A DNA stretch of 64,000 nt from Candidatus Poribacteria bacterium (GTDB lineage: Bacteria > Poribacteria > WGA-4E > JAJDTR01). The DNA is taken from positions 2,217,209 through 2,281,208 of the forward strand of contig OZ244829.1 of assembly GCA_965220415.1 (NCBI GenBank), read 5' to 3'. Within the stretch, counting starts at the first letter, position 1; each line of letters starts with the position of its first letter. Below the pieces are notes generated by a model that was not told the origin of the DNA, made no database searches, and saw only the letters and a program-made list of their open reading frames with translations. A program made the translations under genes and the position numbers. Shown here piece by piece: positions 8,029 through 59,640 of this stretch.

Positions 8029-8200
8029 GATGTAGGTTGGGTTGAGCAGTCGACAGCCAAGTTTTATTCAGCTTGCAAGCACAGATAATCTTTTCGATGA
8101 CCCGTTGGGGTAAACAGATATAGCGAAACCCAACTATTGGAAGAAAAAATCGCTTCTGCATGTGATTTCTCTCGGTTTTCCGTTCAACCCAACCTACGCA
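8029..8200. repeat. MITE-like element, family 2 (19-bp TIR GATGTAGGTTGGGTTGAGC ... CGTTCAACCCAACCTACGCA)
   Basis: Terminal inverted repeats at 8029-8047 and 8181-8200. An internal GCGAAACCCAAC motif is shared with copies at 42889-43000 and 62188-62462. Confidence 0.55.
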
Positions 8201-8370
8201 CTGCTATCATAAATCGTAGATGGAGCTACAGGTATAACTCCTTGTAGGAGCAATCTCCCGACTGCGTTTCGTCTCGTCTTTCATTGTCACTCCCGGGCTA
8301 TATCGAAGCTGATGATGCTCCCACCGCCGTGAATTACATGCGATTGCCCTGTACCTCCCGATATTTTGAG

Positions 8371-9910: not shown

Positions 9911-10176
9911 TTATACTCGACGCTGCTGAGAATTGCTTATTTTGTAGGAGCGATCTCCGAATCGCGACCTATTTAAATCTTGGTAGCCCCAGAGGAGATC
10001 AAGCGAATGAATAATGAGCGAACAGCGAAGGCGATAGAGATCCCATAGGAATCCCACAGATGGAAACTGCGGACGTTACCCTATTCAATATTCGTTCGCT
10101 TGGTACTGTCTCTACAATCGGCGAAGCAAGCCTTAAATCTTGAAAAGCGCAATTTCTGACAGCGCACAGTATAAAA
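9911..10176. repeat. MITE/REP-like element, family 1 copy A (modules 1+2) with ~26-bp imperfect TIRs
   Basis: Left end TTATACTCGACGCTGCTGAGAATTGC; right end GCGCAATTTCTGACAGCGCACAGTATAAAA is its imperfect reverse complement. Contains GTAG-led TGTAGGAGCGATCTCC and a GATCAAGCGA...GCGATAGAGATCCC module. Confidence 0.6.
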
Positions 10177-13062: not shown

Positions 13063-13644
13063 TTATTCTTTGCACCTCTCTATTTGCGTTGTTCGGTTAA
13101 CCGGGTTTTCCTCGTCCAACGCCCAGTTCCGCGGGTTGTTTTTGATATAGGTACGGATATCGTCCAATGATTCATCGTCACGGATGACATGGTCGTAAAA
13201 GGAGCGCTGCCACAATTTTGCATTAAATGGTTTCCAACCCTTTGTTTTGACGCCTTCGATATACAACCTGGTTGTCAACGATTTGAATCGGTGTACAACC
13301 TCAGACAAGGAAAATGTAGGGACAACCCCCCGTGGTTGTCCGTTTGGGTTGAAACGCGCTTCGTTTGGGACGGCACGGGGGCCGTCCCCTACAATGATAA
13401 TTATTCCGTGCAAATGATTAGGCATTATCTGGAATTGGTCTGTCCGTATACCGTGATAAAATATCGATAATTCATGCCAGGTTTTTGCCACCATTTTTCC
13501 TGCGGCATTTGGAATCATCTGACCATCAACGATTTTACCAAATAATTCCTTTCGATTTTGCGTGCAGATTGTCACAAAATAATATCCCGGCTGAGAATAA
13601 TCGTAATGCTGTAGCCGATTCGGTTTTCGGATTTGGTTATTCAT
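13063..13644 (-). CDS. IS200/IS605-like Y1 (HuH) transposase of the REP-associated (RAYT) type
   Basis: YYFVTICT N-terminal strand, HuH motif MPNHLHGII, and C-terminal WQRSFYDHVIRD...YIKNNP. Annotated from the internal ATG (MNNQIRKPNRLQHYDY...); a TTG at 13668 extends it by 8 aa. A REP-like hairpin module is translated in-frame between the HuH motif and the C-terminal half. Confidence 0.8.
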   Translation of the reverse strand: MNNQIRKPNRLQHYDYSQPGYYFVTICTQNRKELFGKIVDGQMIPNAAGKMVAKTWHELSIFYHGIRTDQFQIMPNHLHGIIIIVGDGPRAVPNEARFNPNGQPRGVVPTFSLSEVVHRFKSLTTRLYIEGVKTKGWKPFNAKLWQRSFYDHVIRDDESLDDIRTYIKNNPRNWALDEENPVNRTTQIERCKE

Positions 13645-14128
13645 AATCCGTGCGGATTGTAGGGACAACCCCCCTGTGGTTGTCCGTTGGGGTTAATACG
13701 TGCTTCATTCGGGACAGCACGGGGACCGTCCCCTACAATGACAATTATTCCGTGCAAATGGTCACAAAATAATATCCTGCATGGGGATAATCGTAATACT
13801 GTAACCGATTCGGTTTTCGGGTTGGTTATTCATAATCCGTGCGGATTGTAGGGACAACCCCCTGTGGTTGTCCGTTGGGGGTTGATACGTGCTTCATTCG
13901 GGACGGCACGGGGACCGTCCCCTACAATGACAACTATTCCGTGCAAATGATCACAAAATAGTATCCCGCATGGGGACAATCGTAACACTGTAGCCGATTC
14001 GGTTTTCCGGTTTGGTTATTCATAATTCGTGCGGATTGTAGGGACAACCCCCCGTGGTTGTCCGTTGGGGTTGATACGTACTTCATTCGGGACGGCACGG
14101 GGACCGTCCCCTACATTTCCTAAACCCC
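13315..14128. repeat. Tandem array (~3 units of ~190 bp plus a half unit) of RAYT 5'-end + GTAG-led paired GC-rich hairpins (REP-like)
   Basis: Units start at 13580, 13771 and 13961 and end at ~14125. Each carries TGTAGGGACAACCCCC(C)GTGGTTGTCCG (GTAG + GGACAACC/GGTTGTCC hairpin) and GGGACGGCACGGGGACCGTCCCC (second hairpin), followed by a copy of the first ~100 nt of the transposase ORF. Extra-genic copies carry a 1-bp deletion that frameshifts the N-terminal peptide. An additional hairpin module sits at 13315-13417 inside the gene. Confidence 0.8.
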
Positions 14129-15235
14129 TCATATCAATCGGTCATAAACTGCTTGTACCTGCTCCACGTGCTTGGTGATGCTGAAATGGCGCTCGGCGTG
14201 CGCTCGCGCCGCTCGTCCCATCTGCCTACAAAGCGATGGATTCCGTATCATTTGCACGATTTTAGCTGTGATGCCTTCAATAGGAAATTGTGGAATCACC
14301 CACCCTGTATTACCATCGTCAATCATGTCTATCGCGCTTCCAACCGGCGTGCCAATGACCGGTTTGCCAGCCGCCATGGCTTCCGGGATGACACTTCCCG
14401 CCGAGAGAGTTACGAGAAGATCCAGCCCGTGCATCACTGCTGGCATGTCCTCGCGATGACCTGTGCAGGTAACATATTCCGTAAGATTCAATTCAGAGAT
14501 TAACCGGCGCAGTTCCCGCTCGTACGCAAGGTGCTCGGAGTTAGATTGCGTTCCGCCAATAATCAGAAAACTGACATCTTTGCACGCTTTAAGGACATGC
14601 GATGCTATCTTGACAAATTCCTTCTGACGCTTAAATGGTTCAATCCGTCCCACTATGCCTATCACGAATCGCCGCAGTGTAAATTCTTGCCGGAGGGTAT
14701 TCGGTTTAACTCCTATTGATTCAAACGCGTCCAAATCCACACAGTTCACAATGACTTCAATCTTGTTGGGCGAAATACCAGCCTCAAGAAATGGAGGCGT
14801 GTATCGCTTCGAAATTGAGATAATAGCGGACATGTTGTGGAAGCCGTACTTTGTCACCTGATCGAGGCGAATAGGAGCCTTAACATGAGAGATGATCGGA
14901 ATCCTACACTGACGGGCTACGCGAAGTGCGTAGGGATTGTGCCACGAATCGGAAGCATGAATCAGTCGAATCTCCTGTTCTGTAGCAAGTTGAACGAACC
15001 GAGATGCCGCAGCATAGCGGTGAAGTATGTTTTTCCACTTTCGCCACCCGGGTAGTGTATGGATAACGGTATCGATTCCTGCCTCACGCAGTTGCTTCGG
15101 GAATACGCCATCATCGGGACAGACTACAATTGGCTGATAGCGGCTCCAATCCAGATTGGTAACGAGATAGAACAGTTGGCGTTCAGCGCCGCCGAAGATT
15201 GAACCGCTCAGGTATAAGATGCGTGTCATAATCAC
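14129..15235 (-). CDS. Glycosyltransferase family 4 (GT-B, group 1)
   Basis: 368 aa; N-terminal acceptor domain and a C-terminal EX7E-like region typical of GT4. No signal peptide. Confidence 0.8.
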   Translation of the reverse strand: MIMTRILYLSGSIFGGAERQLFYLVTNLDWSRYQPIVVCPDDGVFPKQLREAGIDTVIHTLPGWRKWKNILHRYAAASRFVQLATEQEIRLIHASDSWHNPYALRVARQCRIPIISHVKAPIRLDQVTKYGFHNMSAIISISKRYTPPFLEAGISPNKIEVIVNCVDLDAFESIGVKPNTLRQEFTLRRFVIGIVGRIEPFKRQKEFVKIASHVLKACKDVSFLIIGGTQSNSEHLAYERELRRLISELNLTEYVTCTGHREDMPAVMHGLDLLVTLSAGSVIPEAMAAGKPVIGTPVGSAIDMIDDGNTGWVIPQFPIEGITAKIVQMIRNPSLCRQMGRAARAHAERHFSITKHVEQVQAVYDRLI

Positions 15236-17194: not shown

Positions 17195-18025
17195 ATGTCA
17201 AATCCCGAAGATGCGTCAATGACTTTTTGGGAACATCTTGAAGAATTGAGACGGCGGCTTATTGTGATAGCAATCGCAATCTGCGCCTTCACTTTTCTAA
17301 GTCTAGGCTTTAGCCGGCCAATCGAGAATGTCCTGCGATTCCCGATGGAGACCTCCATCAACACCATACTGGCAGGCATCATTGACCGTACAGTTGGCGT
17401 AGAGGGGTCAATGATGGGTTTCCTCTCTGTTTCCCTGAAAGCAGGCGCATCAATTGTTGAAGCCGAACTGCTAAAAATTGGGCCGGTCGAAGGGATTATG
17501 GCATACCTAAAGATTAGCATAGCTTGCGGCTTGCTACTCGCTTCTCCGATTGTGCTCTATCAAATCTGGGCATTCATTTTTCCAGCTTTGACACAAAAAG
17601 AAAAAAAGTTTGCTCTACCGCTTTTCCTCGTTATTGTCGCCTTTTTTGTGGTCGGCGTCATATTTGCTTACCTAATTGTCACTCCGACCGTCCTTCACTT
17701 TTCCGCCAACCTTTTTCCCAACATGGCGAACCGTTGGGACATCGAAAAATACGTGAACTTCATCACCCGACTACTATTAGGGTTTGGTATCGCGTTTGAA
17801 CTTCCGATTGTCATGGCGTTTCTGTCTTGGATCGGAGTGGTCAACTCACGCGGATTTCGAGAGAAACAGAGTTTTGCCGTCGTGGGAATCTTTGTCATGT
17901 CGGCGCTGCTGACTCCGGCAGACCCGCTCTCCATGTTCCTGATGGCAGTTCCGCTAATCGTACTATACCAGTTGGGGATCTTTTTTGCCTTTCTCCTTGA
18001 ACGGGAATCCGAAAGCTATGCCTAA
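17195..18025 (+). CDS. tatC: Twin-arginine translocase subunit TatC
   Basis: Six predicted TM helices and the conserved TFWEHLEELRRRL N-terminal motif; lies 15 bp after tatA. Confidence 0.9.
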   Translation: MSNPEDASMTFWEHLEELRRRLIVIAIAICAFTFLSLGFSRPIENVLRFPMETSINTILAGIIDRTVGVEGSMMGFLSVSLKAGASIVEAELLKIGPVEGIMAYLKISIACGLLLASPIVLYQIWAFIFPALTQKEKKFALPLFLVIVAFFVVGVIFAYLIVTPTVLHFSANLFPNMANRWDIEKYVNFITRLLLGFGIAFELPIVMAFLSWIGVVNSRGFREKQSFAVVGIFVMSALLTPADPLSMFLMAVPLIVLYQLGIFFAFLLERESESYA

Positions 18026-18770
18026 TTCCAATCTACAAGAGCAACTTGGCTTGCTTCACCAACTTCAACAACTTGAACTGACCATCTTGTCATTGCATCA
18101 ACAACGCCAAGCCATACCGCTAAAGATTGCAAAGCTGGAAGAAGGTTTTCAGGTACATCAGGGGGCATTGGACGCAAAGAAAGAAGCGCTCGCGGAGGCG
18201 GAACGAGAATTGCGTTCAAAAAATGCGGAACTTACGGATCAACAGGAGCAACGTGGAAAATACGAAACTCAACTGCGTGAAGTGAAAACCAACAAGGAAT
18301 ACCAAGCACTGGATAACGAAATCAGATTTTCACAGGAAAAGGAAGCAGAAATTGAAGATGCTATCCTCGGATTCATGTTGGATATCGATCGATTTCAAGA
18401 GGAGCTTCGGCAGGCGCAGGCTTCCTTTAACGCAGAGAAAGAGAAAGTCAGTAGCCGGAAAGCCACATACGAACAGGAGGGGAGAGATTTAGAAGCGGCG
18501 GTCACGGCGCAGCAGCAGAAACGCACACGTTTTTCGCCTGACATAGATAAGGAGTTGATGACCGGTTATCAAGCGTGGGGTAGGCGCAACAAATCAGCGT
18601 TTGTGTCGATAGTAAAAAATAATGCATGCGGCGGTTGCCGAATCGCAATCCCACCCCAGACACTCAAGGAAGCCCGCAAATTCGAAAAGGTTGTCCAGTG
18701 CTCCAGCTGCAAACGTATCATTTACCCCCTGCCTCAAGAAGAAAAAGAAGCCGATCAAGCGAGTGGATAA
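18018..18770 (+). CDS. Zinc-ribbon domain protein (COG1579 family) with long coiled coil
   Basis: Coiled-coil body followed by a C-terminal CGGC...C(x2)C zinc ribbon (ACGGCRIAIPPQ...VQCSSCKRI). Its ATG at 18018 overlaps the tatC stop by 8 bp. Confidence 0.7.
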   Translation: MPNSNLQEQLGLLHQLQQLELTILSLHQQRQAIPLKIAKLEEGFQVHQGALDAKKEALAEAERELRSKNAELTDQQEQRGKYETQLREVKTNKEYQALDNEIRFSQEKEAEIEDAILGFMLDIDRFQEELRQAQASFNAEKEKVSSRKATYEQEGRDLEAAVTAQQQKRTRFSPDIDKELMTGYQAWGRRNKSAFVSIVKNNACGGCRIAIPPQTLKEARKFEKVVQCSSCKRIIYPLPQEEKEADQASG

Positions 18771-18960
18771 CGAGCGCGATAGAAATACTTTCAAGCGAAC
18801 GCATAGTGCGCAAGATTTCCATTCGCCTTGGGATCTCTATCGCGGTGGCTGTTTGCTCCGTTGATCCTATTCGGTCAGTTGATCGAAAGAGACCCTTTCA
18901 AGCGAGTGGATAACAAGCAGGATTTACTATTGCAGTCACTGTCCATGTCCATTGATCGAT
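18760..18960. repeat. Two copies of dispersed-repeat module 2 (CAAGCGAGTGGATAAC[GA]AG...GATAGAAAT)
   Basis: CAAGCGAGTGGATAACGAGCGCGATAGAAAT at 18762 and CAAGCGAGTGGATAACAAGCAGGAT at 18898. The module is shared with 9995-10040, 42735-42790, 52142-52240, 58060-58150 and 59498-59600. Confidence 0.4.
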
Positions 18961-19068
18961 AGAAATCCTACCAGCCTTGTTGGAATCGGAATTTGGCGCC
19001 AGTGCAAATTTTTTTTGAGGTTGATTATCCTACCGCTCCGAGTCATCAAGGTAAAACAAGGCATGAAA

Positions 19069-19090
19069 GCGCGGGACGTTGTGCCCGCGC
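19069..19090 (-). terminator. Possible intrinsic terminator of the 1310-aa surface-protein gene
   Basis: GCGCGGG-ACGTTGTG-CCCGCGC hairpin lies 30 nt downstream of the minus-strand stop (19119-19121) and is followed on that strand by TTTCAT. Confidence 0.35.
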
Positions 19091-19118
19091 TATTGAGAAA
19101 AGGAAGAATCCATCCCTC

Positions 19119-22100
19119 CTACTTACCGATCAACATCTTGCGAGTTGCAGCGAAATCATCGGCGGTTAGGGTGTAAAAGTATACGCCACTGACAACACGC
19201 TCACCGACACTGTTGCGGCCATCCCAATACGCCGCAAGACTTCGTTCGGTGTAATAACTAGCTACCTGATACCCTAGATTCAAATGACGCACTAACGTAC
19301 CGTTGATGTCGTAAATCGAGATTTGTACCTCGGCATCATTGGCTAACCCGTACGGAATCCACGTCTCCGGGTTAAACGGATTTGGGTAGTTGGGAAAAAG
19401 CACAGTCTCTGCCGGGGTTAGAGTTGCCAGAAGATGCTCTAGGAAAAGAACGCCAAGCTGCAATGTGGCGTCCTTCAGATCAAGTTCTCTCGCTTGTGCC
19501 AACCACTCTCCCACGTCCGCTCTTGTAGGAGGGATCTCCAGGTTGCGACTCCAGGCTGAAGGCGCGGCGGCTGCGTTCCCAAGCGCACTCACCACCAACA
19601 CCAAATCAAGGATGTTCACTATTCCATCCCCGTTGACATCCGCGGGCAAATCTGCATCTTCGGTCCCGAGACCTGACGCCACCGAGACCAAATCCAAAAA
19701 ATTCACAACATCGTCCCTGTTTACATCCTCCAGGATAGGCGGCAATTCGGCGGTTGTTGTGGCGGTCTGGCTCTGCTGAATCCCTGTAACAGCCACTTCG
19801 ACGGTGTTCGTTCCTGGATTTGGGCCCAATGTGAGGGTACTCTCCGCCCGACCATCACTATCCGTCGTGGCACTGGTTACACTGAGTGTCCCACCGCCAC
19901 CGGTAACCGTGAAGGTGACCTGCACACCCGGTAAGGGTTCGCCGGATCGATCTGCCACGTATACGACAATCGGTCTGGGAAGCGCTTCACCGATGAACCC
20001 CTTTTGGTCGAATCCGGAGATTATCCAGAACGCCAAAGGCGTTCGGATGCCTCGGGCAGTAAACGTCTCTGTTCGCGTAATCCCCGCTACAGTCACGTCA
20101 ACGCTGTTCGTTCCCGGATCTGGTCCCAACGTTAGGATACTCTCCGCCCGACCATCGCTCTCCGTCATGACGCTTGTGGCGCTCAGCGTCCCACCGCCAG
20201 CGGTAACCGAGAACGTTACTTCGGCGCCCGGCATAGGTTCGTCAAACTGGTCTCGCACTTCCACGATAAACGGGTTTTCAAGCGCCTCACCGTACGGCCC
20301 CTCTTGGTCGTCTCCCGAGATTATCCCCAATGTCGTGGGAATCCTGATGCCTTGGGCAGTAAACGTCTGGTTCTCCTGAATCCCCGAAATGGACACGGTC
20401 ACTGTATTCGCTCCCGGATTGGATCCCAACGTGAGGGTACTCTCGGCTCTTCCGTTCGCATCAGTCGTAACGCTTGTGGCGCTCAGCGTCCCGCCGCCAC
20501 TGCTGACCGAGAACGTGACTTGAACACCAGCGAGGGGTTTATCCGACTGATCTCGCACCTCCACCACAAACGGGTTCGCAAGCGCCGAACCGGGCAGTCC
20601 CTGTTGGCCGCCGCCCGAGATTATCTCCAATGTCTTGGGAATTCTGATGCCTTGGGCAGTAAGCGTCTGCTTCTCCTGAAGTCCAGTAACGGACACAGTA
20701 ACTGTATTTGCTCCCGGATTGACTCCCAACGTCAAGGTACTCTCGGCTCGTCCGTTGGCGTCGGTGATTGCGGTGGTGGCACTCAGCGATCCACTGCCCG
20801 CGAGGACAGTAAAGCCCACAGTAATCCCTTCCATCGGAGCATCGTACTGATCGCGGACTTCAACCACAAACGGGTTCGCCAAAGCTTCACCTGTCAAACC
20901 GTTCTGATTATCTCCCGAGAAGATTGACAGAGCCGTTGGAATCGGTGGTGGGAGAACCGCTTCAGCACTAAAGACCGCTGTTTGGGAAAGACCTTCGACA
21001 CTCGCCTCGACGGTGTTCGTGCCGGGACTGCCTCCAAGCGTCAGCGTACTCTCGGCTCGTCCGTTGGCGTCGGTAATTGCGGTGGTGGCACTCAGCGATC
21101 CACTGCCCGCGAGGACAGTGAACCTCACAGTAATCCCTTCCATCGGGGCATCGTACTGATCGCGGACTTCAACCACAAACGGGTTCGCCAACGCTTCACC
21201 TGTCAAACCGTTCTGATTATCGCCGGATATACTCTTTTGGCTTGTCGGTTCTAACACAGGTGGTGTCGTCACTGGCGGATCGATTGTCGTTGGAGGTTGT
21301 GTTGTAATTTGTGGTTGCTGCAGTGACTCTTGTTGCTGCTGTTGTGACGATGGCGATGATTCTTGCTGCTGTTGTGACGATGGCGATGATTCTTGTCGCT
21401 GTTGTGACGGTGGCGATGGTTCTTGCTGTTGCTGTGACGATGGCGGTGGGGTACCAACTGTCGCGGTTCCGCTGGTAGATTTGGAGCCGACCGTCGCTGT
21501 GACCGTGTATGAACCGGAGGCGCTGTTCCCAAGTGTTAGTGTTGTGGAGGCCTGGCCGTTGCTGCCGGTTGTCGCACTTGTGGAATTCAACGACGCATTC
21601 CCATCGCCTGATGTGATACTAAACGTCACGGTTTTCCCTGACGCGGCACTCCCATCCTCCTGAACTTCAACAGTAAACGTCAATGCATCACCAGGGGCAC
21701 CAGATCCGGGACCACTTACCACACTTATCGATGATTCTGGCGGCGACTGCGGGGATGGGGTGCCAACTGTCGCGGTTCCGCTGGTAGATTCGGAGCCGAC
21801 CGCCGCTGTGACCGTGTATGAACCAGAGGCACCGCCCCGAAGTATCAGTAGCGTCTTTGCTCGTCCATTGCTATTAGTTGCTACATTTGTAGGATTTAGC
21901 AACACAGTCCCATCGTCTGGACTCAGGCTGAACGTCACGGTTTTCCCTGACGCGGGACTCCCATCCTCCTGAACCTCAACAGTAAACATTAGGCCCTGAC
22001 CGGGATTGCCAGATCCGGGACCACTTACCACACTTATCGATAATTGTGGTGTGTCAACCGTCGCTGTCCCGCTCGTAGATGTGCTGCCAACTGTCGCTGT

Positions 22101-23051
22101 GAGCGTGTATGAGCCGGCGGCGCTGTTCCCAAGTGTTAGCGTTGTGGATGCCTGGCCGTTGGTACCGGTTGTCGCACTTGTGGGATTCAGCGACGCATTT
22201 CCATCGCCTGATGTGATACTAAACGTCACGGTCTTCCCTGACGCTGCACTGTCATCCTCCTGGACCTCAACAGTAAAGGTCAATGCAGCACCGGGGGCAC
22301 CAGACCCGGGACCACTTACCACACTTATCGATAATTCTGGCTGCGTCGGCGGCGATGGGGTCTCAACTGTCGCAGTCCCGCTGGTAAATTTAGTGCCGAC
22401 TGTCGCTTTGACCGTGTATGAGCCGGCGGCGCTGTTCCCAAGTGTTAGTGTTGTGGATGCTCGCCCGTTGGTACCGGTTGTCGCACTTGTGGGATTCAGC
22501 GACGCATTCCCATCGCCTGATGTGATACTAAACGTCACGGTCTTCCCTGACGCTGCACTGTCATCCTCCTGGACCTCAACAGTAAAGGTCAATGCAGCAC
22601 CGGGGGCACCAGACCCGGGACCACTTACCACACTTATCGATAATTCTGGAGGCGGTGGTGGGGCCTTAATTGTCGCAGATCCGCTCGCAGATGCGTCGCC
22701 GACCGTCGCTGTGACCGTGTATACGCCGGAGGATCCGCTCCCGGTAGACAGTGTGGTCGTCACCGACTGGTTGCTAACGGACGTCGCGCTTGTGGGACTC
22801 AGAGACACGGTCCCATCATCTGGGCTCACACTAAACGTCACCGTTTGACCTCCCGCGGGGTTTGAATCCTCTCCGACATAGACATATGCACTAAACCTAA
22901 ACGAACTTCCGGGGCTGCGGGCAAAAGGAGTATAAGTCATTATAATGGAGACTTCTTCCGTTTCCTCCTCTTCCGTTGCCTCCAATGGCATCAACACACA
23001 TACCATAAATAGTGCGATGAAACAAATCAGTGATTTTTTCATAAGTTTCAA
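19119..23051 (-). CDS. Giant secreted surface protein: tandem Ig-like (Big) domains, Q/S/P-rich linker, dockerin-like repeats, C-terminal T9SS (Por) sorting domain
   Basis: Signal peptide. Repeated ~95-aa units (SISVVSGPGSG...TFTVEVQEDDSAASGKTVTFS and GDNQNGLTGEALANPFVVEVRDQYD...) resemble Big_2/invasin-like folds. DVNRDDVVNFLDLV...DVNGDGIVNILDLVLVV are dockerin type I repeats. The C-terminus NYPNPFNPETWIPY...GVYFYTL matches the Por_Secre_tail signature. Confidence 0.85.
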   Translation of the reverse strand: MKLMKKSLICFIALFMVCVLMPLEATEEEETEEVSIIMTYTPFARSPGSSFRFSAYVYVGEDSNPAGGQTVTFSVSPDDGTVSLSPTSATSVSNQSVTTTLSTGSGSSGVYTVTATVGDASASGSATIKAPPPPPELSISVVSGPGSGAPGAALTFTVEVQEDDSAASGKTVTFSITSGDGNASLNPTSATTGTNGRASTTLTLGNSAAGSYTVKATVGTKFTSGTATVETPSPPTQPELSISVVSGPGSGAPGAALTFTVEVQEDDSAASGKTVTFSITSGDGNASLNPTSATTGTNGQASTTLTLGNSAAGSYTLTATVGSTSTSGTATVDTPQLSISVVSGPGSGNPGQGLMFTVEVQEDGSPASGKTVTFSLSPDDGTVLLNPTNVATNSNGRAKTLLILRGGASGSYTVTAAVGSESTSGTATVGTPSPQSPPESSISVVSGPGSGAPGDALTFTVEVQEDGSAASGKTVTFSITSGDGNASLNSTSATTGSNGQASTTLTLGNSASGSYTVTATVGSKSTSGTATVGTPPPSSQQQQEPSPPSQQRQESSPSSQQQQESSPSSQQQQQESLQQPQITTQPPTTIDPPVTTPPVLEPTSQKSISGDNQNGLTGEALANPFVVEVRDQYDAPMEGITVRFTVLAGSGSLSATTAITDANGRAESTLTLGGSPGTNTVEASVEGLSQTAVFSAEAVLPPPIPTALSIFSGDNQNGLTGEALANPFVVEVRDQYDAPMEGITVGFTVLAGSGSLSATTAITDANGRAESTLTLGVNPGANTVTVSVTGLQEKQTLTAQGIRIPKTLEIISGGGQQGLPGSALANPFVVEVRDQSDKPLAGVQVTFSVSSGGGTLSATSVTTDANGRAESTLTLGSNPGANTVTVSISGIQENQTFTAQGIRIPTTLGIISGDDQEGPYGEALENPFIVEVRDQFDEPMPGAEVTFSVTAGGGTLSATSVMTESDGRAESILTLGPDPGTNSVDVTVAGITRTETFTARGIRTPLAFWIISGFDQKGFIGEALPRPIVVYVADRSGEPLPGVQVTFTVTGGGGTLSVTSATTDSDGRAESTLTLGPNPGTNTVEVAVTGIQQSQTATTTAELPPILEDVNRDDVVNFLDLVSVASGLGTEDADLPADVNGDGIVNILDLVLVVSALGNAAAAPSAWSRNLEIPPTRADVGEWLAQARELDLKDATLQLGVLFLEHLLATLTPAETVLFPNYPNPFNPETWIPYGLANDAEVQISIYDINGTLVRHLNLGYQVASYYTERSLAAYWDGRNSVGERVVSGVYFYTLTADDFAATRKMLIGK
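21341..21460. repeat. 39-bp tandem repeat (~3 copies) inside the surface-protein CDS encoding the SSPSSQQQQE linker
   Basis: TCTTGCTGCTGTTGTGACGATGGCGATGAT-type units repeat at 21341, 21380 and 21419. In-frame, translated as SSQQQQESSPSSQQQQ... Confidence 0.6.
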
Positions 23052-23433
23052 GTCCTTTCATTTCGTATCATGGTAAATCAAAAATTAGTGGTTTATGGTT
23101 GACACGTGATGGCATAGTATTGCCGGGACAAGATATCCGATTCACACGTGCCTGAAACCTGCGATATAACAACATTTTTGCCCTGAAAATGATCCCATAT
23201 ATATTCGATGATGTCAAGGAAAAATGAACTTTTTTACCACTTCCGTAAAATTTTTTCTGCGGTCTGAAATATGTTTAGGCTAATTGCATACTACCCCAGA
23301 CACTGATGTCGCAGCGCTTGAAAATATGATGGTTTGGGTGATATATTCATTATGCAACTAAAACATCATCGAAATTGCCATTGTGGGGAAATCAGCAGAT
23401 CGAGTTGATTAATCTCATCAAAGCGACTGTGTT

Positions 23434-23462
23434 TTGACAATCCTCTAAGCGTATGATACAAT
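23434..23462 (+). promoter_or_regulatory. Near-consensus sigma70 promoter (-35 TTGACA, 17-nt spacer, -10 TACAAT)
   Basis: TTGACA 23434-23439 and TACAAT 23457-23462 with an exact 17-nt spacer. It drives a small ORF whose AGGAGG RBS is at 23475-23480. Confidence 0.45.
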
Positions 23463-23488
23463 GCATAGAGTAAGAGGAGGTGAGAACC

Positions 23489-23686
23489 ATGGCATCCCGC
23501 AATACCTACAAGTATCATTTGAAACGAGGCGATAAAATCATTATTGCATCGCCAGGAAATCACTATACATTTGAGATTCAGATGTCTCGGTTGTTGCTGA
23601 GTTTCTCAAGAGTATTGCGTTTGATATTGGCGGCGGGGTTGAATCAAATTCCTGCCGCCTTTTTGCATTGTTACCGAGTAGTTTAA
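23489..23686 (+). CDS. Small hypothetical protein (65 aa) in a compact promoter-RBS-ORF-terminator unit
   Basis: ATG lies 8 nt after AGGAGG (MASRNTYKYHLKRGDKIIIASPGNHYTFEIQ...). An intrinsic terminator hairpin lies inside the annotated 3' end, so the true product may be shorter or this may be a leader/sRNA. Confidence 0.35.
   Translation: MASRNTYKYHLKRGDKIIIASPGNHYTFEIQMSRLLLSFSRVLRLILAAGLNQIPAAFLHCYRVV
23629..23665 (+). terminator. Rho-independent terminator hairpin (GGCGGCGGGG...CCTGCCGCC + TTTTTG)
   Basis: GC stem of 6-9 bp with a 12-nt loop, followed by a T5 run on the plus strand. Confidence 0.5.
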
Positions 23687-23865
23687 TCCTGATTTGTTAC
23701 GCTTGCTTAGAGCAATCACGTCAATGCGCGCCGTGCTAGAAAGGATCATAACAGGGAGGCAGAAAAGAACCGGAACGTGTCGCGACCCATTGCAATTGTG
23801 GATTAGCAAGTTGGTACTTGTGAACACGGGGAAAAGCCAAATCAAACCTGCCGAGGGATTGCGCG

Positions 23866-24279
23866 ATGAATACTACAAAAGAGGCGGAATTTGATTATCA
23901 AACTTATTTTAAAGAAAACAGGCCAGATCCAGCACGGATTAATCGCGGACCAAAGGCACGTCAAAAACGACGTGAGGCCGTGGTATGTAACATTCGCGGA
24001 CTTTCTCACTATGAAGACGGTCTGTATGACTGTGCTATTGAAGATTATACGAAAGCGATAGATGCCAATGCCGATTTCGCCGAAGGTTATAACAATCGCG
24101 CTGTTGCTTGGATACATTTGAGCGAATGGGACAAAGCCCGAGAAGATTTGAAGACCGCTAAAGAAAAGGGTGTAGACATCATCGTCGCATTTCATAACGA
24201 CTACGAAAAAGTCTCGGATTTCCAGCAGAAAACAGGAATACAGTTGCCGGAAGACATCGCCGCAATGCTGACAAACTAA
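23866..24279 (+). CDS. TPR-repeat protein (137 aa)
   Basis: Two to three TPR-like motifs (DYTKAIDANADFAEGYNNRAVAWIHLSEWDKAREDL). Lies immediately upstream of the SIR2-like gene on the same strand. Confidence 0.65.
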   Translation: MNTTKEAEFDYQTYFKENRPDPARINRGPKARQKRREAVVCNIRGLSHYEDGLYDCAIEDYTKAIDANADFAEGYNNRAVAWIHLSEWDKAREDLKTAKEKGVDIIVAFHNDYEKVSDFQQKTGIQLPEDIAAMLTN

Positions 24280-24483
24280 TCAATCGGTAAGTAGATTTCC
24301 TATTGTGGAGACACTGTCTGAGTCACGAATTAAGGGATTTCTACCGCACTCACTATCCGTTCGGACGGTCGGATTACGCGGATGACAGGGACAAGAGGCG
24401 ATTCTCACTGTACGCGGATTTGATCTTTGGCAATCGAAGATTCAGACGGTCATCAAAAAATTCAACATCATTAAAGCAAAAAC

Positions 24484-28044: not shown

Positions 28045-28331
28045 CCGGAAACCTAAACAATCCCAACTTAACTCGTTCGACTATGAACGGAAAAACGTAG
28101 AGTGGATACCGCACGGCAAGAGAAGAGAACGGGGATGTAAAATTCTAGACACTACCGGATTTCAGTTCTGACAGCAGGCGGGTGATGCCCTCTTGGATCT
28201 TTGCTTCGACGGACGGCTCCGGGATAACCGATGTTTTAGCGACGCCTCATAACCACCGGCAAGTCCAAGGTAATGACCCTTCTTCGTGACGATGCCGCAC
28301 GATTGCGGAAGTCAACTGGGTTAGCACTTGA

Positions 28332-33322: not shown

Positions 33323-33487
33323 TATACTCCGCGCTGTCAGAAATTGCGTCTTCTGTAGGAGCGATCTCCAGGTCGCGACCCTTGTACGAAGGACTCCGAT
33401 TCCCGACCTGCTGGTGCTACGTAAGTCCTATTAGAAATAATTATCACCGGAAAAGAAAGCGCAATAATACCCAACGCAGAGTGTAGA
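33323..33487. repeat. MITE/REP-like element, family 1 copy D (modules 1+3)
   Basis: TATACTCCGCGCTGTCAGAAATTGCGTCTTCTGTAGGAGCGATCTCCAGGTCGCGACC...CCCAACGCAGAGTGTAG, near-identical to copies at 51787 and 58013. Confidence 0.6.
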
Positions 33488-42226: not shown

Positions 42227-42637
42227 CTTAATTTCCGCCTTTATAACACATCATAGGGCCAAGTAATGCGGTAATCGCCCAGAACGGATTCCATAGTCAA
42301 CTCAACTTTGTCCGATGCCCCATATCTTCCCGAAATCTTGGGCCGTCGCCGAGGATTGCTCTTCGATCGGCATTGATTGCGAACAAGCTCGGAACAGTGA
42401 AAATTTGACAGCGTGTTAGTATAAGGGAATCGCGCGTTTGGTGTCAATGCAAAACCAAATCGTTTTCAGGGCGAGTGCGTCTGATTGTAGGATTAAGTGA
42501 GTGACTAGCGGTCAAGCGAGCGAATAGCGATCGTGATAAGGGGCCCAGGACCAAAATGCTCTCCATTCAGACGTACGTTCCCTACAACGTTTGAGGTCTA
42601 CGGAGCAAAGACCGTCTCATTCAGGTAGGTGGGATAG

Positions 42638-43048
42638 CAGGGGAAACGCATCTATACTCCACGCTGCTGAGAATTGCTTATTTTGTAGGAGCGATCTCCG
42701 AATCGCGACCTCTTTAAATCTTTGGTAGCCCCAGAGGGATCAAACGAGTGGATAACGAGGGCGATAGTAAATCCCGTGCGATAGAGATTTTACAGGTGTA
42801 CAACAATTCACGGCAGAAACATGAAAAACTACTCCTCATATGACAAAAAATGGGATTGGCACCTATTATTCAATCAGGCTCTAAGGATCGTAGGTTGGGT
42901 TGAACGAAATTCGTTAATGATCGTTAATCTTAGAGACGTTTCCGAGTCCCCACTTTGCATGAACATACCGAAAATATGAGTGAAACCCAACATTAATCGT
43001 AAATTCTACCGCCATGAGACATCCTCTAAATTAGATGCGTTTCCCCTG
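42638..43048. mobile_element. Composite non-autonomous element with perfect 16-bp TIRs (CAGGGGAAACGCATCT / AGATGCGTTTCCCCTG) and 10-bp target-site duplication GGTGGGATAG
   Basis: Direct repeat GGTGGGATAG at 42628-42637 and 43049-43058 immediately flanks the inverted repeats at 42638-42653 and 43033-43048. The interior carries a family-1 MITE copy (42654-42790) and a truncated family-2 copy (42889-43000). Confidence 0.6.
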
Positions 43049-43713: not shown

Positions 43714-43853
43714 AACCGGGATTGCGGCTTGACACCTACACTACTCGCACTCCGATTTGGGTCTTGTTGTAGGGACTAACGAGAGGACTCCATAGTAGCT
43801 TTACCGCACGGGGATTTACTATCGCACGCCTTATCCAGTCACTTGATCGCTGT

Positions 43854-44708
43854 TCACTCGTTTAATCGGTAAAAGCGAATCGCGTTTTCACAGAACAGTT
43901 TCTTCATTTCGTCCTCGGAGCACCCATCCACCGCCCACGCCAAGGTCTCAACCCACTGTGGATAGTCGATTGCTTGCGTTGAAACAGGCCAATCACCGCC
44001 ATAGATGACCCGATCAAATCCGAAACACTTGATAACATGATCGATATACGGTTTCAGATCTGTCGGTCTCCATGTTTCAAAATCCGCCGAGGTTGCAACG
44101 CCTGACACTTTGCAGTACACGTTAGGGAATTTTGATAACGATTCGATTTCGCGCGCCCATGGCTGAAAAACCTCATTCTTGATGTCGGGTTTTCCGAGGT
44201 GGTCTAGCATGAATTGGTTGTTCGGACACTGCCTGACGAACTCAATCACGTTGGCAAGCTGCGGCTGGACAATGCAAATATCAAAACTCAGTCCATATTC
44301 CTCCAGCAGTTGAACGCCTTTGATGAAAGCGGGCTGCAAGCAGAAATCCAGGGATTCCGACTGAATGAGGCGGCGAATGCCTTTGACCAATGGGTTCACC
44401 GCCAGCTTCTCAAGTACGGGCCTCACGCCTTCCCCATTTTCCAGAGGCGCCGACGCCACAATCCCCTTAATCCGCGGTTCGTCCTTAACAAGGGATGTCA
44501 CCCACTCAACCTCAGCCAGGCGTTCGTCCGGGTGGACATCACACTCGACAAAAACAAACGACCCGACACTGACAGATCCACTAGCAGCCCTCAAGTCATT
44601 CAACAGATGCGGTTTACTTATAGCAGGAACTTCCCCAAGCCAAGGGTATCGCAGGCGTTCCGGATCCCACAGATGCACATGCGTGTCTACAATTGGAAAG
44701 CTAATCAT
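43854..44708 (-). CDS. Amidohydrolase-2 family metal-dependent hydrolase
   Basis: N-terminal DTHVHLWD metal-binding motif and C-terminal ...GGDWP.. region typical of PF04909 TIM-barrel hydrolases. Confidence 0.75.
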   Translation of the reverse strand: MISFPIVDTHVHLWDPERLRYPWLGEVPAISKPHLLNDLRAASGSVSVGSFVFVECDVHPDERLAEVEWVTSLVKDEPRIKGIVASAPLENGEGVRPVLEKLAVNPLVKGIRRLIQSESLDFCLQPAFIKGVQLLEEYGLSFDICIVQPQLANVIEFVRQCPNNQFMLDHLGKPDIKNEVFQPWAREIESLSKFPNVYCKVSGVATSADFETWRPTDLKPYIDHVIKCFGFDRVIYGGDWPVSTQAIDYPQWVETLAWAVDGCSEDEMKKLFCENAIRFYRLNE

Positions 44709-51786: not shown

Positions 51787-51960
51787 AAGTTATATACTCC
51801 GCGCTGCTGAGAATTGCTTATTTTGTAGGAGCGATCTCCAGGTCGCGACTCTTGTACGAGGGAACTCCGATTCCCGACCTGATGGTACTACGTAAGTCCT
51901 ATTAGAAACAACTATCACTGGAAAAGAAAGCGCAATAATACCCAACGCAAGGTATATATC
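51787..51960. repeat. MITE/REP-like element, family 1 copy C (modules 1+3)
   Basis: TATACTCCGCGCTGCTGAGAATTGCTTATTTTGTAGGAGCGATCTCCAGGTCGCGAC...CCCAACGCAAGGTATAT; the ends are imperfect inverted repeats (TATACTCCGCG / CGCAAGGTATA). Confidence 0.6.
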
Positions 51961-52141: not shown

Positions 52142-52240
52142 TAGGGATCAAGCGAGTGGACAGCGAGCGATCAACTGACTGATTAAGGAAGGCGATAGAG
52201 ATCCCGTAGAGATCCACTAATCACTAGCCACTAAACACTT
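52142..52240. repeat. Solo copy of dispersed-repeat module 2 (GGGATCAAGCGAGTGGA...GCGATAGAGATCCC)
   Basis: Shares the GATCAAGCGAGTG and GCGATAGAGATCCC blocks with the copies listed for 18760-18960. Confidence 0.4.
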
Positions 52241-52273
52241 CCCTTTTTTCTTAGTATTGGAGGCCATGCATTC

Positions 52274-58012: not shown

Positions 58013-58283
58013 TTTATACTCCGCACTGTCAGAAATTGCGTCTTCTGTAGGATCGAGCGAGTGAATAGCGATCAAGTGACTGAATATGGAACGATCAACC
58101 GAATGAATAATGAGGGCGATAGAACTCCCATAGTAGATCCCGTGCGATAGAAATCCCGCGATCTCAAGGTCGCGACCCTTGTACGAGGGAACTCCGATTC
58201 CCGACCTAATGGTGCTACGTAAGTCCTATTAGAAACAATTATCACTGGAAAAGAAAGCGCAATAATACCCAACGCAAAGTATA
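58013..58283. repeat. MITE/REP-like element, family 1 copy E (modules 1+2+3; module 2 nested between TGTAGGA and GCGATCTC)
   Basis: Same ends as copies C/D (TATACTCCGCACTGTCAG ... CGCAAAGTATAGG), with a ~115-bp module-2 block inserted exactly where the short form reads TGTAGGAGCGATCTCCAGGTCGCGAC. Confidence 0.6.
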
Positions 58284-59495: not shown

Positions 59496-59640
59496 GGCGG
59501 GATCAAGCGAGTGATTTACGAGTCTAATTTCCTATCGCCCTTCCTATTTGGTCGGGTGATCGAAAGGAATACCGTAGTGAATCCCGCGCGACATTGACTT
59601 GAGACTTACAACTTGAACGTCCTCCGAGTAACTCAAACTA

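What the first reader, a model, noticed from the sequence alone, without database searches (positions are those of the whole stretch)
9911..10176. Modular GTAG-led dispersed repeat family (at least 6 loci in this window), possibly the REP/MITE substrate of the local RAYT
Copies at 9911-10176, 33323-33487, 42654-42790, 51787-51960 and 58013-58283, with solo module-2 copies at 18760-18960, 52142-52240 and 59498-59600, share three shuffled modules. Module 1 is TATACTCCGCGCTG[CT][TC]AGA(A)ATTGC...TTTTGTAGGAGCGATCTCC (GTAG + short hairpin). Module 2 is GATCAAGCGAGTGGATAACGAG..GCGATAGAAATCCC. Module 3 is AGGTCGCGACCCTTGTACGAGGGAACTCCGATTCCCGACC...AAAGCGCAATAATACCCAACGCAAAGTATAG. The ends are imperfect inverted repeats (TATACTCCGCG/CGCAAAGTATAG). 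Copy E shows module 2 inserted precisely inside a module 1+3 element. All copies are intergenic, e.g. between gnd and the CoA-transferase, between moaE and the restriction enzyme, in the lepA-lepB spacer, and after the helicase. The conserved 5' GTAG, as in enterobacterial REPs, is the sequence RAYT transposases recognise. The RAYT at 13063 could therefore be what mobilises them, though its own hairpins have a different stem.
Basis: seen in the sequence. Interest (0 to 1): 0.6.

Follow-up and report, generated by a model that had tools for sequence, protein, structure and literature searches.

The report
Poribacterial TA-flanked MITEs carrying REP hairpins
The repeats are real: they are small non-coding jumping elements with inverted ends, common in the genomes of uncultured sponge symbionts (Poribacteria); they carry a conserved hairpin motif and a tiny nested repeat, and the transposase-like gene next door is probably not what moves them.

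Summary
Five copies (A 9912-10173, B 33323-33485, C 42653-42800, D 51793-51956, E 58015-58283) and at least five solo module-2 loci are present where chance predicts none.

The window comes from a Candidatus Poribacteria genome. The 16-mer core TGTAGGAGCGATCTCC occurs in at least 43 poribacterial species assemblies.

The mobile unit is a MITE, a miniature non-coding transposon. It has roughly 26-nt imperfect terminal inverted repeats (TATACTCCRCGCTG...). It duplicates a TA target: relatives lack copies B and E, and each empty site keeps a single TA.

Its left arm holds a 25-nt GTAG-type REP hairpin, GTAG-GA-GCGAT-CTCCGA-ATCGC-GAC, whose stem covaries. Three body types share this arm, and copy D is a chimera joined at the REP.

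Module 2 is a separate 37-nt unit (X + Y), unstructured and without a target duplication. It is nested in A, C and E, and it sits just 3' of GTAG about 15 times more often than expected.

The RAYT at 13063 is intact. However, it and its homologues in six other loci are flanked by a different REP (GTAGGGGACGGC...), never by this family. The RAYT link is therefore not supported.

No autonomous partner element was found. This is a new member of known kinds, of moderate interest.

The parts
9912..10173 (+). Copy A: a complete type II MITE, 262 nt. It runs TA + left inverted repeat + REP-a (9944-9968) + type II body + right inverted repeat + TA. A nested module 2 lies at 9997-10055.
   Evidence: (D7, D10, I4, I7). 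With the nest removed it is 93% identical to the copy in another species (L010). As single-stranded DNA it folds with the ends paired, z -3.1.
33323..33485 (+). Copy B: a type III MITE, 163 nt. REP-a lies at 33355-33379, followed in tandem by a degenerate REP-b. The right inverted repeat is degenerate.
   Evidence: The orthologous site is empty in L123 and L124: CCCCGTGC-TA-GATTAGC against CCCCGTAC-TA[TACTCC..GAGTG]TA-GATTAGCC in the window.
42653..42800 (+). Copy C: a truncated type II MITE. It keeps the left inverted repeat, REP-a (42685-42709), the start of the type II body and module 2 (42738-42790), but has no right end.
   Evidence: It lies directly inside the left end of the 411-nt element 42638-43048.
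42638..43048 (.). Host element of copy C: 411 nt, with a perfect 15-nt terminal inverted repeat CAGGGGAAACGCATC / GATGCGTTTCCCCTG. It is flanked by the direct repeat GGTGGGATAG (42628-42637 and 43049-43058).
   Evidence: L123 and L124 have the uninterrupted site ..GCTGGATAGTCCTTGAGATT..
51793..51956 (+). Copy D: a type III MITE, 164 nt. REP-a (51825-51849) and REP-b (51854-51878) lie in tandem. Its left arm is the variant otherwise found in type II copies, so D is a chimera joined at REP-a.
   Evidence: D is 90-92% identical to B and E. It has no significant fold: DNA z -0.6, RNA z -1.1.
58015..58283 (+). Copy E: a type III MITE, 269 nt. Its REP-a is split (GTAGGA 58047-58052 and GCGATCTCAAGGTCGCGAC 58158-58176) by a 105-nt module-2 cluster. 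REP-b lies at 58181-58205.
   Evidence: The orthologous site is empty in L116: CGAAGT-TA-GGAAC against CGGATT-TA[TAC..GTA]TA-GGAATC in the window.
58053..58157 (+). Module-2 cluster nested in copy E, made of three X units and three Y units. It is a clean insertion with no duplication and no loss of host bases.
   Evidence: by comparison with the uninterrupted copies B and D.
18753..18968 (+). Module-2 cluster with direct and inverted X/Y units. Its first codons supply the stop codon of the Zn-ribbon gene (17985-18770). It starts exactly at the left breakpoint of a strain-variable island.
   Evidence: It is present at the same base in L124 and absent in L113 and L123.
42493..42543 (+). Degenerate module 2 inserted directly after GATTGTAGGA.
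   Evidence: L123 and L124 share it. L115 has GATTGTAGA|AAAC with no module.
43811..43867 (-). Module 2 in inverted orientation, lying between the CYTH gene and the end of the amidohydrolase gene.
   Evidence: (I1, I2). The spacer is about 75 nt longer than in L115, L123 and L124.
52146..52215 (+). Module 2 with two X and two Y units, upstream of lepB and directly after TTGTAGTAGG.
   Evidence: The contig of the 99%-identical strain (L117) starts right after it, so the assembly broke at the repeat.
59501..59585 (+). Module-2 composite: X, then an inverted Y-X, then Y. It lies 6 nt after the Ldh_2 gene.
   Evidence: L116 has a module 2 inserted 20 nt further upstream in the same gene end, which is an independent event.

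Best explanation
The family is a non-autonomous DNA transposon (MITE) of Poribacteria.

**Shown**
- The unit is 141-207 nt in its basic forms. It is bounded by imperfect terminal inverted repeats of about 26 nt, TATACTCCRCGCTGYYAGAAAYTGCG.
- It inserts at TA and leaves TA on both sides.
- It is present or absent at orthologous sites in close relatives.
- It has no coding capacity.
- Its left arm always carries a 25-nt GTAG-type REP hairpin (REP-a). Type III copies add a second hairpin (REP-b) whose stem differs by compensatory changes.
- Three body types share the left arm. They exchange arms at the 16-nt identical REP core, which explains the 'shuffled modules'.
- Module 2 is a separate 37-nt unit, X (GATCAAGCGAGTGGATAACGAG) plus Y (GCGATAGAGATCC). 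It is found nested in MITE copies and elsewhere, without duplication, and preferentially just 3' of GTAG or GTAGG.

**Inferred**
- The MITE is moved in trans by a DDE transposase that targets TA (IS630/Tc1-mariner-like, as proposed for RUP), encoded elsewhere in the genome.
- The REP hairpins ride inside the MITE as passengers or as inner parts of its arms.
- The neighbouring RAYT serves its own, different REP family.
- What moves module 2 is unknown.
For: **Inverted ends and copies**
-.

**TA duplication**
- Two independent orthologous empty sites, seen in three relatives: copy B against L123/L124 and copy E against L116.
- A nested case in L115, where one TA must belong to the interrupted hairpin.

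**Non-coding, intergenic**
- The longest stop-free stretch in any copy is 70 aa or less.
- 124 of 125 REP-a sites lie outside ORF interiors.

**Spread**
- The REP-a core occurs in at least 43 poribacterial species assemblies.
- The same inverted-repeat element occurs in at least five other genomes: CBDBEE01, CAXXCS01, JAJDTR01, ERZ21830300 and a JGI contig.

**REP hairpin**
- 82% of stem cells pair, against 70% in shuffles.
- There are 41 double changes against 16.8, with 0 of 500 shuffles reaching this. Slid controls give 20-50% paired.
- In the other poribacterial loci there are 51 REP-a/REP-b doublets with GTAG facing outwards.

**Chimeras**
- The left-arm variant CTGAGAATTGCTTATTT occurs with body II (A, C, L010, L021, L049) and with body III (D).
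- The variant TCAGAAATTGCGTCTTC occurs with body III (B, E, L090) and with body I (L027, L053, L101, L111).

**Module 2**
- Clean insertion in E.
- Independent insertions after GTAGG in both arms of another REP pair (L073, L057).
- An orthologous empty site in L115.
- 9 of 53 distinct upstream contexts have GTAG ending 0-3 nt before X, against 1.1% expected.

**RAYT**
- Its own REP type lies within and around the gene in the window, and in L113 and L118-L122. This family is never there.

**Literature**
- Bacterial MITEs typically have inverted ends, a terminal 5'-TA-3' and target duplication. RUP is ascribed to IS630-Spn1, which targets TA (PMC2229807).
- IS630-type genes exist in these genomes (L119 1-784).
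Against: - No autonomous element with these ends was found. There is none in about 1.1 Mb of poribacterial loci. The metagenome scan with the end sequence gave one truncated copy. The IS630-type end in L119 resembles the MITE end only weakly.
- The TA pattern could also arise if an element inserted next to a TA and itself ended in TA, without any duplication. The empty-site data cannot separate the two. Only the symmetry of the ends and the lack of a longer conserved flank favour duplication.
- The right inverted repeat of type III copies is degenerate (60-66% over 30 nt). These copies may no longer be mobile.
- Half of the module-2 junctions are not next to GTAG. Several GTAG junctions inside MITEs may descend from one event copied with the MITE.
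- The covariation test uses related sequences, and the loci were selected for containing REP-a.
Confidence: 0.7

Rival explanations
1. The repeats are REP/REPIN elements mobilised as single-stranded DNA by the RAYT at 13063, which recognises the GTAG head and the hairpin.
For: - REP-a and REP-b have a GTAG head, an unpaired GA, a covarying 5-bp stem and a conserved GAC tail. This is the layout of the GTAG-1 REPs of Pseudomonas (PMC3733652).
- Elsewhere in Poribacteria they form inverted doublets like REPINs (51 cases).
- An intact RAYT lies in the window, with HUH = HLH and a conserved Tyr.
Against: - The unit that moved includes 26-nt inverted ends outside the REP and shows a TA on both sides.
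- This RAYT and its homologues in six further loci contain and are flanked by another REP (GTAGGGGACGGC.../GTAGGGACAACC...). None has REP-a within about 4 kb (window sequence).
- None of the 112 REP-a loci holds a RAYT homologue.
- In the window REP-a and REP-b lie in tandem, not inverted.
Confidence: 0.07
2. A hybrid view. REP-a/REP-b doublets are, or were, substrates of a different RAYT encoded elsewhere in the genome. The inverted-repeat MITEs are carriers that captured them. Both enzymes shape the family, and RAYT-type cutting and joining at the REP produces the chimeras.
For: - The same REP-a/REP-b doublet forms the core of a second, unrelated MITE family, TATAGTGAATTATAG...CCACTATA, with 27 copies.
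- It also occurs outside MITEs, as tandem arrays and solo copies.
- Arm exchange happens exactly at REP-a.
- A. variabilis GTAG-15 dimers likewise sit inside long TATAGGA...TCCTATA palindromes (PMC3733652).
Against: - No second RAYT was seen.
- Exchange at a 16-nt identical stretch is equally explained by homologous recombination or gene conversion.
- There is no direct evidence that REP-a moves on its own.
Confidence: 0.3
3. The repeats are kept for a host function, such as a transcription terminator, an mRNA-stabilising 3' hairpin, a small RNA or a protein-binding site, and are not mobile parasites.
For: - Four of the five window copies lie 8-166 nt downstream of a gene on the same strand.
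- The REP stem is conserved by compensatory change.
- The 25-nt REP-a is identical across many species.
Against: - No Rfam family matches at gathering score anywhere in the window.
- Across 108 classifiable REP-a sites (16 others lay at locus edges) there is no orientation bias relative to flanking genes: 33 co-oriented, 26 anti-oriented, 29 divergent, 20 convergent.
- Promoter-like and terminator-like matches are at chance level.
- Type III copies have no significant fold.
- Presence or absence varies between close relatives.
Confidence: 0.08
4. Module 2 is not a mobile unit. It is instead a by-product of replication slippage or recombination between short GATC-containing motifs.
For: - X and Y units vary in number (1-3 each) in tandem.
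- Module 2 has no structure and no terminal duplication.
- It sits at a large structural breakpoint.
Against: - The same 37-nt unit occurs at many unrelated sites in many species.
- It appears as a clean insertion in otherwise intact paralogous copies (E against B and D; L073 and L057 against L111).
- The junctions are strongly enriched for GTAG.
Confidence: 0.15

Closest known systems
TA-flanked bacterial MITEs: Correia/NEMIS (Neisseria), RUP (S. pneumoniae, ascribed to IS630-Spn1), ERIC (PMC2229807)
   Same: - 100-270 nt, non-coding and intergenic.
- Terminal inverted repeats of about 24-26 nt that begin with TA.
- TA target duplication shown by filled and empty sites.
- Size variants created by internal insertions.
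- Copies often lie just downstream of genes.
- A second poribacterial family even shares the terminal TATAGTGGA...TCCACTATA motif with Correia ends. The Correia end sequence is recalled from my own knowledge and was not tested here.
   Different: - The window family has no sequence similarity to these elements.
- It carries a GTAG-type REP hairpin as a fixed internal part.
- Type III copies do not fold into a long stem-loop.
- The host is an uncultured sponge-symbiont phylum.
- No matching insertion sequence is known.
GTAG-tagged REPs, GTAG-1 type (Pseudomonas and others), and REPINs (PMC3733652, PMC3116915)
   Same: - GTAG head, an unpaired dinucleotide (GA), a short GC-rich stem with compensatory variants and a conserved 3-nt tail.
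- High copy number, extragenic.
- Mostly inverted doublets with GTAG facing outwards.
- Tandem clusters also occur.
- The same 16-mer occurs in REPs of Pseudomonadales MAGs.
   Different: - The stem is only 5 bp, with a 6-nt loop.
- In the window the REPs are single or in tandem and always lie inside an inverted-repeat MITE.
- They do not flank the local RAYT.
- The unit seen to move is the MITE, not the doublet.
Anabaena variabilis GTAG-15 dimers inside long TATAGGA...TCCTATA palindromes (PMC3733652, section 7)
   Same: REP dimers embedded in a longer palindrome whose ends start with TATA. This is the same composite architecture as the poribacterial families.
   Different: - Different sequences and a different phylum.
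- In A. variabilis no target palindrome without REPs was found, and mobility and target duplication were not addressed.
Small dispersed repeats (SDR) of heterocystous cyanobacteria (Elhai et al. 2008, cited as ref. 43 in PMC3116915; details from my own knowledge)
   Same: Module 2 is likewise a very small (under 40 nt) dispersed unit. It is found nested inside other repeats, including MITEs, and inside copies of itself.
   Different: - There is no sequence relation.
- As I recall, SDRs of the hairpin type have structure, whereas module 2 has none.
- A preference for GTAG heads has not, to my knowledge, been described for SDRs.
Insertion sequences that target REPs (IS110 family and others; cited in PMC3733652, Background)
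   Same: Site-preferential insertion into REP sequences without target duplication, as seen for module 2.
   Different: - Those are full elements of 1-1.5 kb with a recombinase gene.
- Module 2 is 37 nt.
- The one IS110-type gene seen (L124 3454-4860) has no X or Y motif nearby.

Membership tests
Bacterial MITE (TA-duplicating, Correia/RUP type) | Small (under about 300 bp) and without coding capacity | tested here: met
   Copies are 148-269 nt. The longest stop-free stretch is 70 aa or less. No ORF of 100 aa or more overlaps them.
Bacterial MITE (TA-duplicating, Correia/RUP type) | Terminal inverted repeats | tested here: met
   The ends are about 26 nt. A-right against B-left is 92% complementary (I7). 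Complete copies with both ends occur in L053, L057, L073, L101, L111 and L010. Within one copy the ends match at 60-81% over 30 nt.
Bacterial MITE (TA-duplicating, Correia/RUP type) | Target-site duplication (TA), shown by filled and empty sites | tested here: met
   Copy B against L123 and L124. Copy E against L116. A nested case in L115. Insertion beside a TA without duplication cannot be formally excluded.
Bacterial MITE (TA-duplicating, Correia/RUP type) | Many dispersed copies within and between genomes | tested here: met
   Five copies in 64 kb. The same ends occur in at least five other genomes.
Bacterial MITE (TA-duplicating, Correia/RUP type) | A parent insertion sequence with the same ends and a transposase | tested here: inconclusive
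   None was found in 128 loci or in the metagenome scan. The complete genomes could not be searched.
GTAG-tagged REP, GTAG-1 type | GTAG at one end of a stem-loop, an unpaired dinucleotide before the stem and a conserved 3-nt tail | tested here: met
   The layout is GTAG-GA-GCGAT-CTCCGA-ATCGC-GAC. Head, loop core and tail are at least 90% conserved in 70 variants. The definition comes from PMC3733652, section 5.
GTAG-tagged REP, GTAG-1 type | Stem kept by complementary changes | tested here: met
   Pairs 8-21 (CG 33 / GC 20) and 11-18 (UA 37 / AU 11 / CG 6). 82% of cells pair against 70% in shuffles, with 0 of 500 shuffles reaching this, and the slid controls are lower. The sequences are related, so this is support and not proof.
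GTAG-tagged REP, GTAG-1 type | Repetitive and extragenic, mostly in inverted dimers | tested here: met
   124 of 125 sites lie outside ORF interiors. There are 51 head-to-head a/b dimers in other Poribacteria. In the window itself the REPs are single or in tandem.
REPIN-RAYT system with the RAYT at 13063 | An intact RAYT: HUH motif and catalytic tyrosine | tested here: met
   Y1_Tnp match at 33.9 bits, above the cut-off of 23. H77, H79 and Y166 are invariant in 18 sequences.
REPIN-RAYT system with the RAYT at 13063 | The REP family flanks its RAYT gene (criterion of PMC3116915) | tested here: not met
   The flanks and interior of the RAYT hold GTAGGGACAACC.../GTAGGGGACGGC... REPs in the window (sequence), in L113 and in L118-L122. 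No REP-a, REP-b or MITE end is there.
REPIN-RAYT system with the RAYT at 13063 | RAYT kept at one place by vertical descent | tested here: met
   The gene order (glycosyltransferase, RAYT, peptidase S13, CoA-transferase, gnd) is the same in L118 at 77% protein identity and in L113. Paralogues exist in other contexts.
REPIN-RAYT system with the RAYT at 13063 | Movement of the doublet without target duplication | tested here: not met
   The polymorphic unit is the whole inverted-repeat element, with TA on both sides.
IS200/IS605-derived miniature element (considered for module 2) | Subterminal hairpins at both ends | tested here: not met
   Module 2 has no significant fold: -1.0 kcal/mol, z +1.0.
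IS200/IS605-derived miniature element (considered for module 2) | Insertion 3' of a fixed tetra- or pentanucleotide, with no duplication | tested here: inconclusive
   No duplication is seen. GTAG ends 0-3 nt upstream in 9 of 53 contexts against 1.1% expected, but 28 of 53 contexts have no GTAG.

The most novel reading that the evidence does not exclude
Module 2 (X + Y, 37 nt) would be a new kind of ultra-small mobile DNA. It has no hairpin, no inverted ends to speak of and no target duplication. It integrates site-preferentially just 3' of the GTAG(G) head of REP hairpins and into copies of itself. It would be moved in trans by an enzyme that reads REP heads, either a RAYT/HUH enzyme or a guide-RNA-directed IS110-type recombinase. 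In this reading REPs are landing pads as well as passengers, and module 2 marks the junctions of strain-variable islands, as at 18753.
Probability: 0.25. Interest if true: 0.7.

Novelty: new member of a known kind. Interest (0 to 1): 0.4.

Why it matters
- **Gap in the literature.** Poribacteria are uncultured sponge symbionts known only from assemblies. In the searched literature, nothing on REPs in Poribacteria was found; the only paper that mentions both is an unrelated review. MITEs in Poribacteria were not searched for.
- **Effect on assemblies.** These elements fill many intergenic regions and break short-read assemblies. One contig of a 99%-identical strain starts right after a module 2.
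- **Effect on genome structure.** They sit at structural breakpoints between strains and supply stop codons to genes.
- **Mechanistic example.** The family is a clear case of REP hairpins being carried and reshuffled by ordinary TA-targeting MITEs. This bears on how REP populations persist and spread across a whole phylum: the same 25-mer occurs in at least 43 species.
- **Annotation lesson.** A RAYT next to GTAG repeats is not necessarily their mobiliser. The flanking-REP test separates the families.
- **Open question.** The 37-nt nested unit is a tractable candidate for a new minimal mobile element.

Tried and rejected
- **Cyanobacterial origin.** This was my first guess from the GATC-rich motifs. 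The genome scan and the protein hits rejected it.
- **Known RNA family.** No Rfam match at gathering score anywhere in the window. No tRNA or tmRNA.
- **Exact look-up of window proteins.** LepA and MoaE are not on record. Relatives had to be reached through homologue searches.
- **lepA-lepB spacer as an empty site for copy D.** It is too rearranged (about 480 extra nt, several events).
- **gnd-CoA-transferase spacer in L118 for copy A.** It is too diverged at 77% protein identity.
- **ABC-addA spacer of L115.** It is unalignable.
- **IS5/IS427-type element in L115 (12706-13528) as the partner.** Its own ends, GGTTCTGTTGA, are unrelated.
- **IS630-type gene in L119 as the partner.** Only one end is visible and the likeness is weak. 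The search for complete copies in metagenomes found none.
- **Scan of metagenomes with the MITE end.** It gave one truncated copy inside a gene.
- **Viral contigs.** There were three 16-mer hits, and only one is a full REP-a.
- **G·T against A·C mismatches, to identify the functional strand.** No G·T excess was found (18 against 31).
- **DnaA-box reading of X (AGTGGATAA).** Dropped because the positions are not conserved among X variants.
- **Promoter or terminator role.** Matches are at chance level.
- **Orientation bias.** All five window copies lie on the + strand, but the wider sample shows no bias relative to genes.
Full report
**What is in the window**

The 25-nt core GTAGGAGCGATCTCCNNNTCGCGAC occurs exactly at 9944, 33355, 42685 and 51825, with 0.00 expected in shuffles. 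A second core, GTACGAGGGAACTCCGATTCCCGAC, occurs at 51854 and 58181.

From the sequences the copies run from TA to TA as follows:

| Copy | Coordinates | Note |
|---|---|---|
| A | 9912-10173 | complete |
| B | 33323-33485 | complete |
| C | 42653 to about 42800 | truncated, no right end |
| D | 51793-51956 | complete |
| E | 58015-58283 | complete |

All copies are intergenic:
- A lies 8 nt after gnd.
- B lies 45 nt after moaE.
- D lies in the lepA-lepB spacer.
- E lies 11 nt after a UvrD/AddA-type helicase-nuclease gene.
- C lies between divergent genes.

No Rfam family, tRNA or tmRNA matches.

**Where the sequence comes from and how widespread the family is**

About 100 of them lie in Candidatus Poribacteria assemblies from 43 different species representatives.

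The window's LepB, MoaE and RAYT have their best matches in Poribacteria. The gene order around the RAYT is the same as in the poribacterial chromosome of 6,490,504 bp (L118).

**Anatomy: a MITE**

Complete copies in other species show both ends. Examples are L053 4783-4923 (141 nt), L101, L111, L057, L073 and L010 (207 nt). The ends are TATACTCCRCGCTGYYAGAAAYTGCG and its imperfect inverse.

Three body types share the left arm.
- **Type I.** It carries a palindromic GTAGGTGCGGTT..AACCGCACCTAC pair. It is not present in the window.
- **Type II.** This is copies A and C. With its nest removed, A is 93% identical to L010.
- **Type III.** This is copies B, D and E, which are 90-94% identical to each other. 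Its right end is degenerate.

Two variants of the left arm combine with different bodies, and D is a chimera. The joint is the identical REP core.

**How it moves**

Relatives with 88-91% identical flanking proteins provide empty sites.
- For copy B, L123 and L124 read CCCCGTGC-TA-GATTAGC. The window reads CCCCGTAC-TA[TACTCC...GAGTG]TA-GATTAGCC.
- For copy E, L116 reads CGAAGT-TA-GGAAC. The window reads CGGATT-TA[TAC...GTA]TA-GGAATC.
- A copy in L115 interrupts another hairpin in a way that requires one TA to belong to the host.

Inverted ends, a terminal TA and TA duplication are the hallmarks of bacterial MITEs such as Correia, ERIC and RUP. RUP is ascribed to an IS630 transposase that targets TA (PMC2229807).

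I therefore infer trans-mobilisation by a TA-targeting DDE transposase. This step is inferred and not shown, because no parent element with these ends was found. Insertion beside a TA without duplication cannot be formally excluded.

**The GTAG hairpin**

REP-a reads GTAG-GA-GCGAT-CTCCGA-ATCGC-GAC. REP-b reads GTAG-GA-GGGAA-CTCCGA-TTCCC-GAC. They differ at four positions, and those four changes keep the 5-bp stem intact.

Across 70 distinct variants:
- 82% of stem cells pair, against 70% in shuffles.
- There are 41 double changes against 16.8 expected, and 0 of 500 shuffles reach this.
- The slid controls give 20-50% paired.

The variants are related to each other, so this is support rather than proof.

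The layout matches the GTAG-1 type of the GTAG REP superfamily: an unpaired dinucleotide after GTAG and a conserved 3-nt tail (PMC3733652). The same 16-mer heads REPs in some Pseudomonadales MAGs.

In the sampled poribacterial DNA, REP-a and REP-b mostly form inverted doublets with GTAG outwards (51 cases). These are the core of a second MITE family, TATAGTGAATTATAG...CCACTATA, with 27 copies. The window's tandem a-b arrangement is the only one of its kind in the sample.

REP dimers inside TATA-ended palindromes have a precedent in Anabaena variabilis (PMC3733652, section 7).

**The RAYT**

The ORF at 13063-13668 (-) is an intact Y1 transposase of RAYT type. It contains an in-frame REP doublet (13316-13393) that encodes a loop conserved across the aligned homologues. 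A 189-nt tandem array of the same doublet precedes it.

The same REP type, GTAGGGGACGGYCCCYGTGCCGTCCC / GTAGGGACARCCCCCTGTGGYTGTCC, flanks the homologues in L113 and L118-L122. In L120-L122 it is also scattered among neighbouring genes.

None of these loci has REP-a, REP-b or the MITE end, and none of the 112 REP-a loci has a RAYT homologue. By the flanking-REP criterion (PMC3116915), this RAYT belongs to another REP family.

**Module 2**

The minimal unit is X (GATCAAGCGAGTGGATAACGAG), one base, then Y (GCGATAGAGATCC). X and Y can each be multiplied in tandem. An inverted copy is often nested between the X and Y of another copy.

Alone it has no fold (z +1.0).

In E it is a clean 105-nt insertion between GTAGGA and GCGATCTC. 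Independent insertions follow GTAGG in either arm of the type I palindrome (L073, L057).

At 42493 it follows GATTGTAGGA, where L115 has GATTGTAGA|AAAC.

Of 53 distinct upstream contexts:
- 9 have GTAG ending 0-3 nt before X (1.1% expected).
- 4 more have it 4-7 nt away.
- 7 (the 4 tallied as CCCCAGAGG plus 3 close variants that the script scored under other classes) lie in the GCCCCAGAGGGGC hairpin that follows another GTAG.
- The remaining contexts, about half of the total, have no GTAG nearby.

At 18753 it begins exactly where the window and a 97%-identical strain (L113) diverge into different gene islands. It is present at the same base in L124 and absent in L113 and L123. What moves it is unknown.

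**Function**

I found no evidence for a host function.
- REP-a orientation relative to flanking genes is unbiased.
- Promoter-like and terminator-like matches are at chance level.
- Type III copies do not fold better than shuffles.

Types I and II and the a/b doublet do fold strongly, with z -6.5, -3.1 and -6.0.

**Verdict**

It is a new member of known kinds in an unstudied phylum. The 37-nt nested unit remains an open and more unusual question.

Noticed in passing
window 13063-14138: The RAYT gene carries an in-frame REP doublet (13316-13393) that encodes the loop VGDGPRAVP...GQPRGVVPT, which is conserved in all aligned homologues. Upstream, a 189-nt tandem array (13558-14138) repeats the first ~115 nt of the gene plus the doublet. 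Strain L113 has fewer units.
   Followed up: partly
L120-L122 (840-6845) and L118, L119: The RAYT-associated REP (GTAGGGGACGGYCCCYGTGCCGTCCC) forms arrays with 37-nt and 89-nt periods upstream of RAYT homologues. It also sits between ribosomal protein genes, so it is a dispersed family in its own right.
   Followed up: partly
window 42638-43048: A further 411-nt element with a perfect 15-nt terminal inverted repeat (CAGGGGAAACGCATC) and a 10-nt direct repeat (GGTGGGATAG). It is absent from the same site in L123 and L124, and it encloses the truncated copy C.
   Followed up: partly
window 19525-19549 (+): A REP-a-like 25-mer (GTAGGAGGGATCTCCAGGTTGCGAC) lies inside the 1310-aa Big_1 / Por_Secre_tail gene (19119-23051, - strand), in the linker between the dockerin and sorting domains. 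It may be an intragenic REP.
   Followed up: no
window 18753-28330: A strain-variable island lies between the Zn-ribbon gene and the aminotransferase gene. The window has a giant Ig-like repeat protein and a 1186-aa SIR2_2 protein. L113 and L124 have a BrnT toxin and other genes, with an IS5-type and an IS110-type element in L124. L123 has an FRG-domain gene and a 745-aa gene.
   Followed up: partly
window 8177-8205 (-), 42879-42897 (+), 62183-62211 (+): Another short GTAG-led unit, GCGTAGGTTGGGTTGAACG, is repeated in the window and found next to REP-a in L029 and L107.
   Followed up: no
L126 (IMG/VR UViG_2681813469_000001, 1659-1684): A predicted viral contig holds a complete REP-a (TGTAGGAGCGATCTCCGAATCGCGAC). 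It could be a prophage or a misassigned piece of a poribacterial genome. The other two viral 16-mer hits are chance matches.
   Followed up: partly
L030, L078, L080, L082, L092, L100: Pseudomonadales and other gammaproteobacterial MAGs (two of the contigs are labelled Klebsiella) carry REPs with the same 16-mer head, GTAGGAGCGATCTCCAGATCGCGAT, some of them in inverted pairs.
   Followed up: no
L031 3213-3404, L040 4076-4430, L083 26-120, L115 17408-17942: REP-a also occurs in head-to-tail tandem arrays with periods of about 38-39 nt and 88-90 nt. The L115 array lies inside a called 240-aa gene with no Pfam match.
   Followed up: no
L117 1-60 versus window 52215-52273: The short-read contig of a 99%-identical strain starts immediately after module 2, which suggests that these repeats break assemblies.
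   Followed up: no
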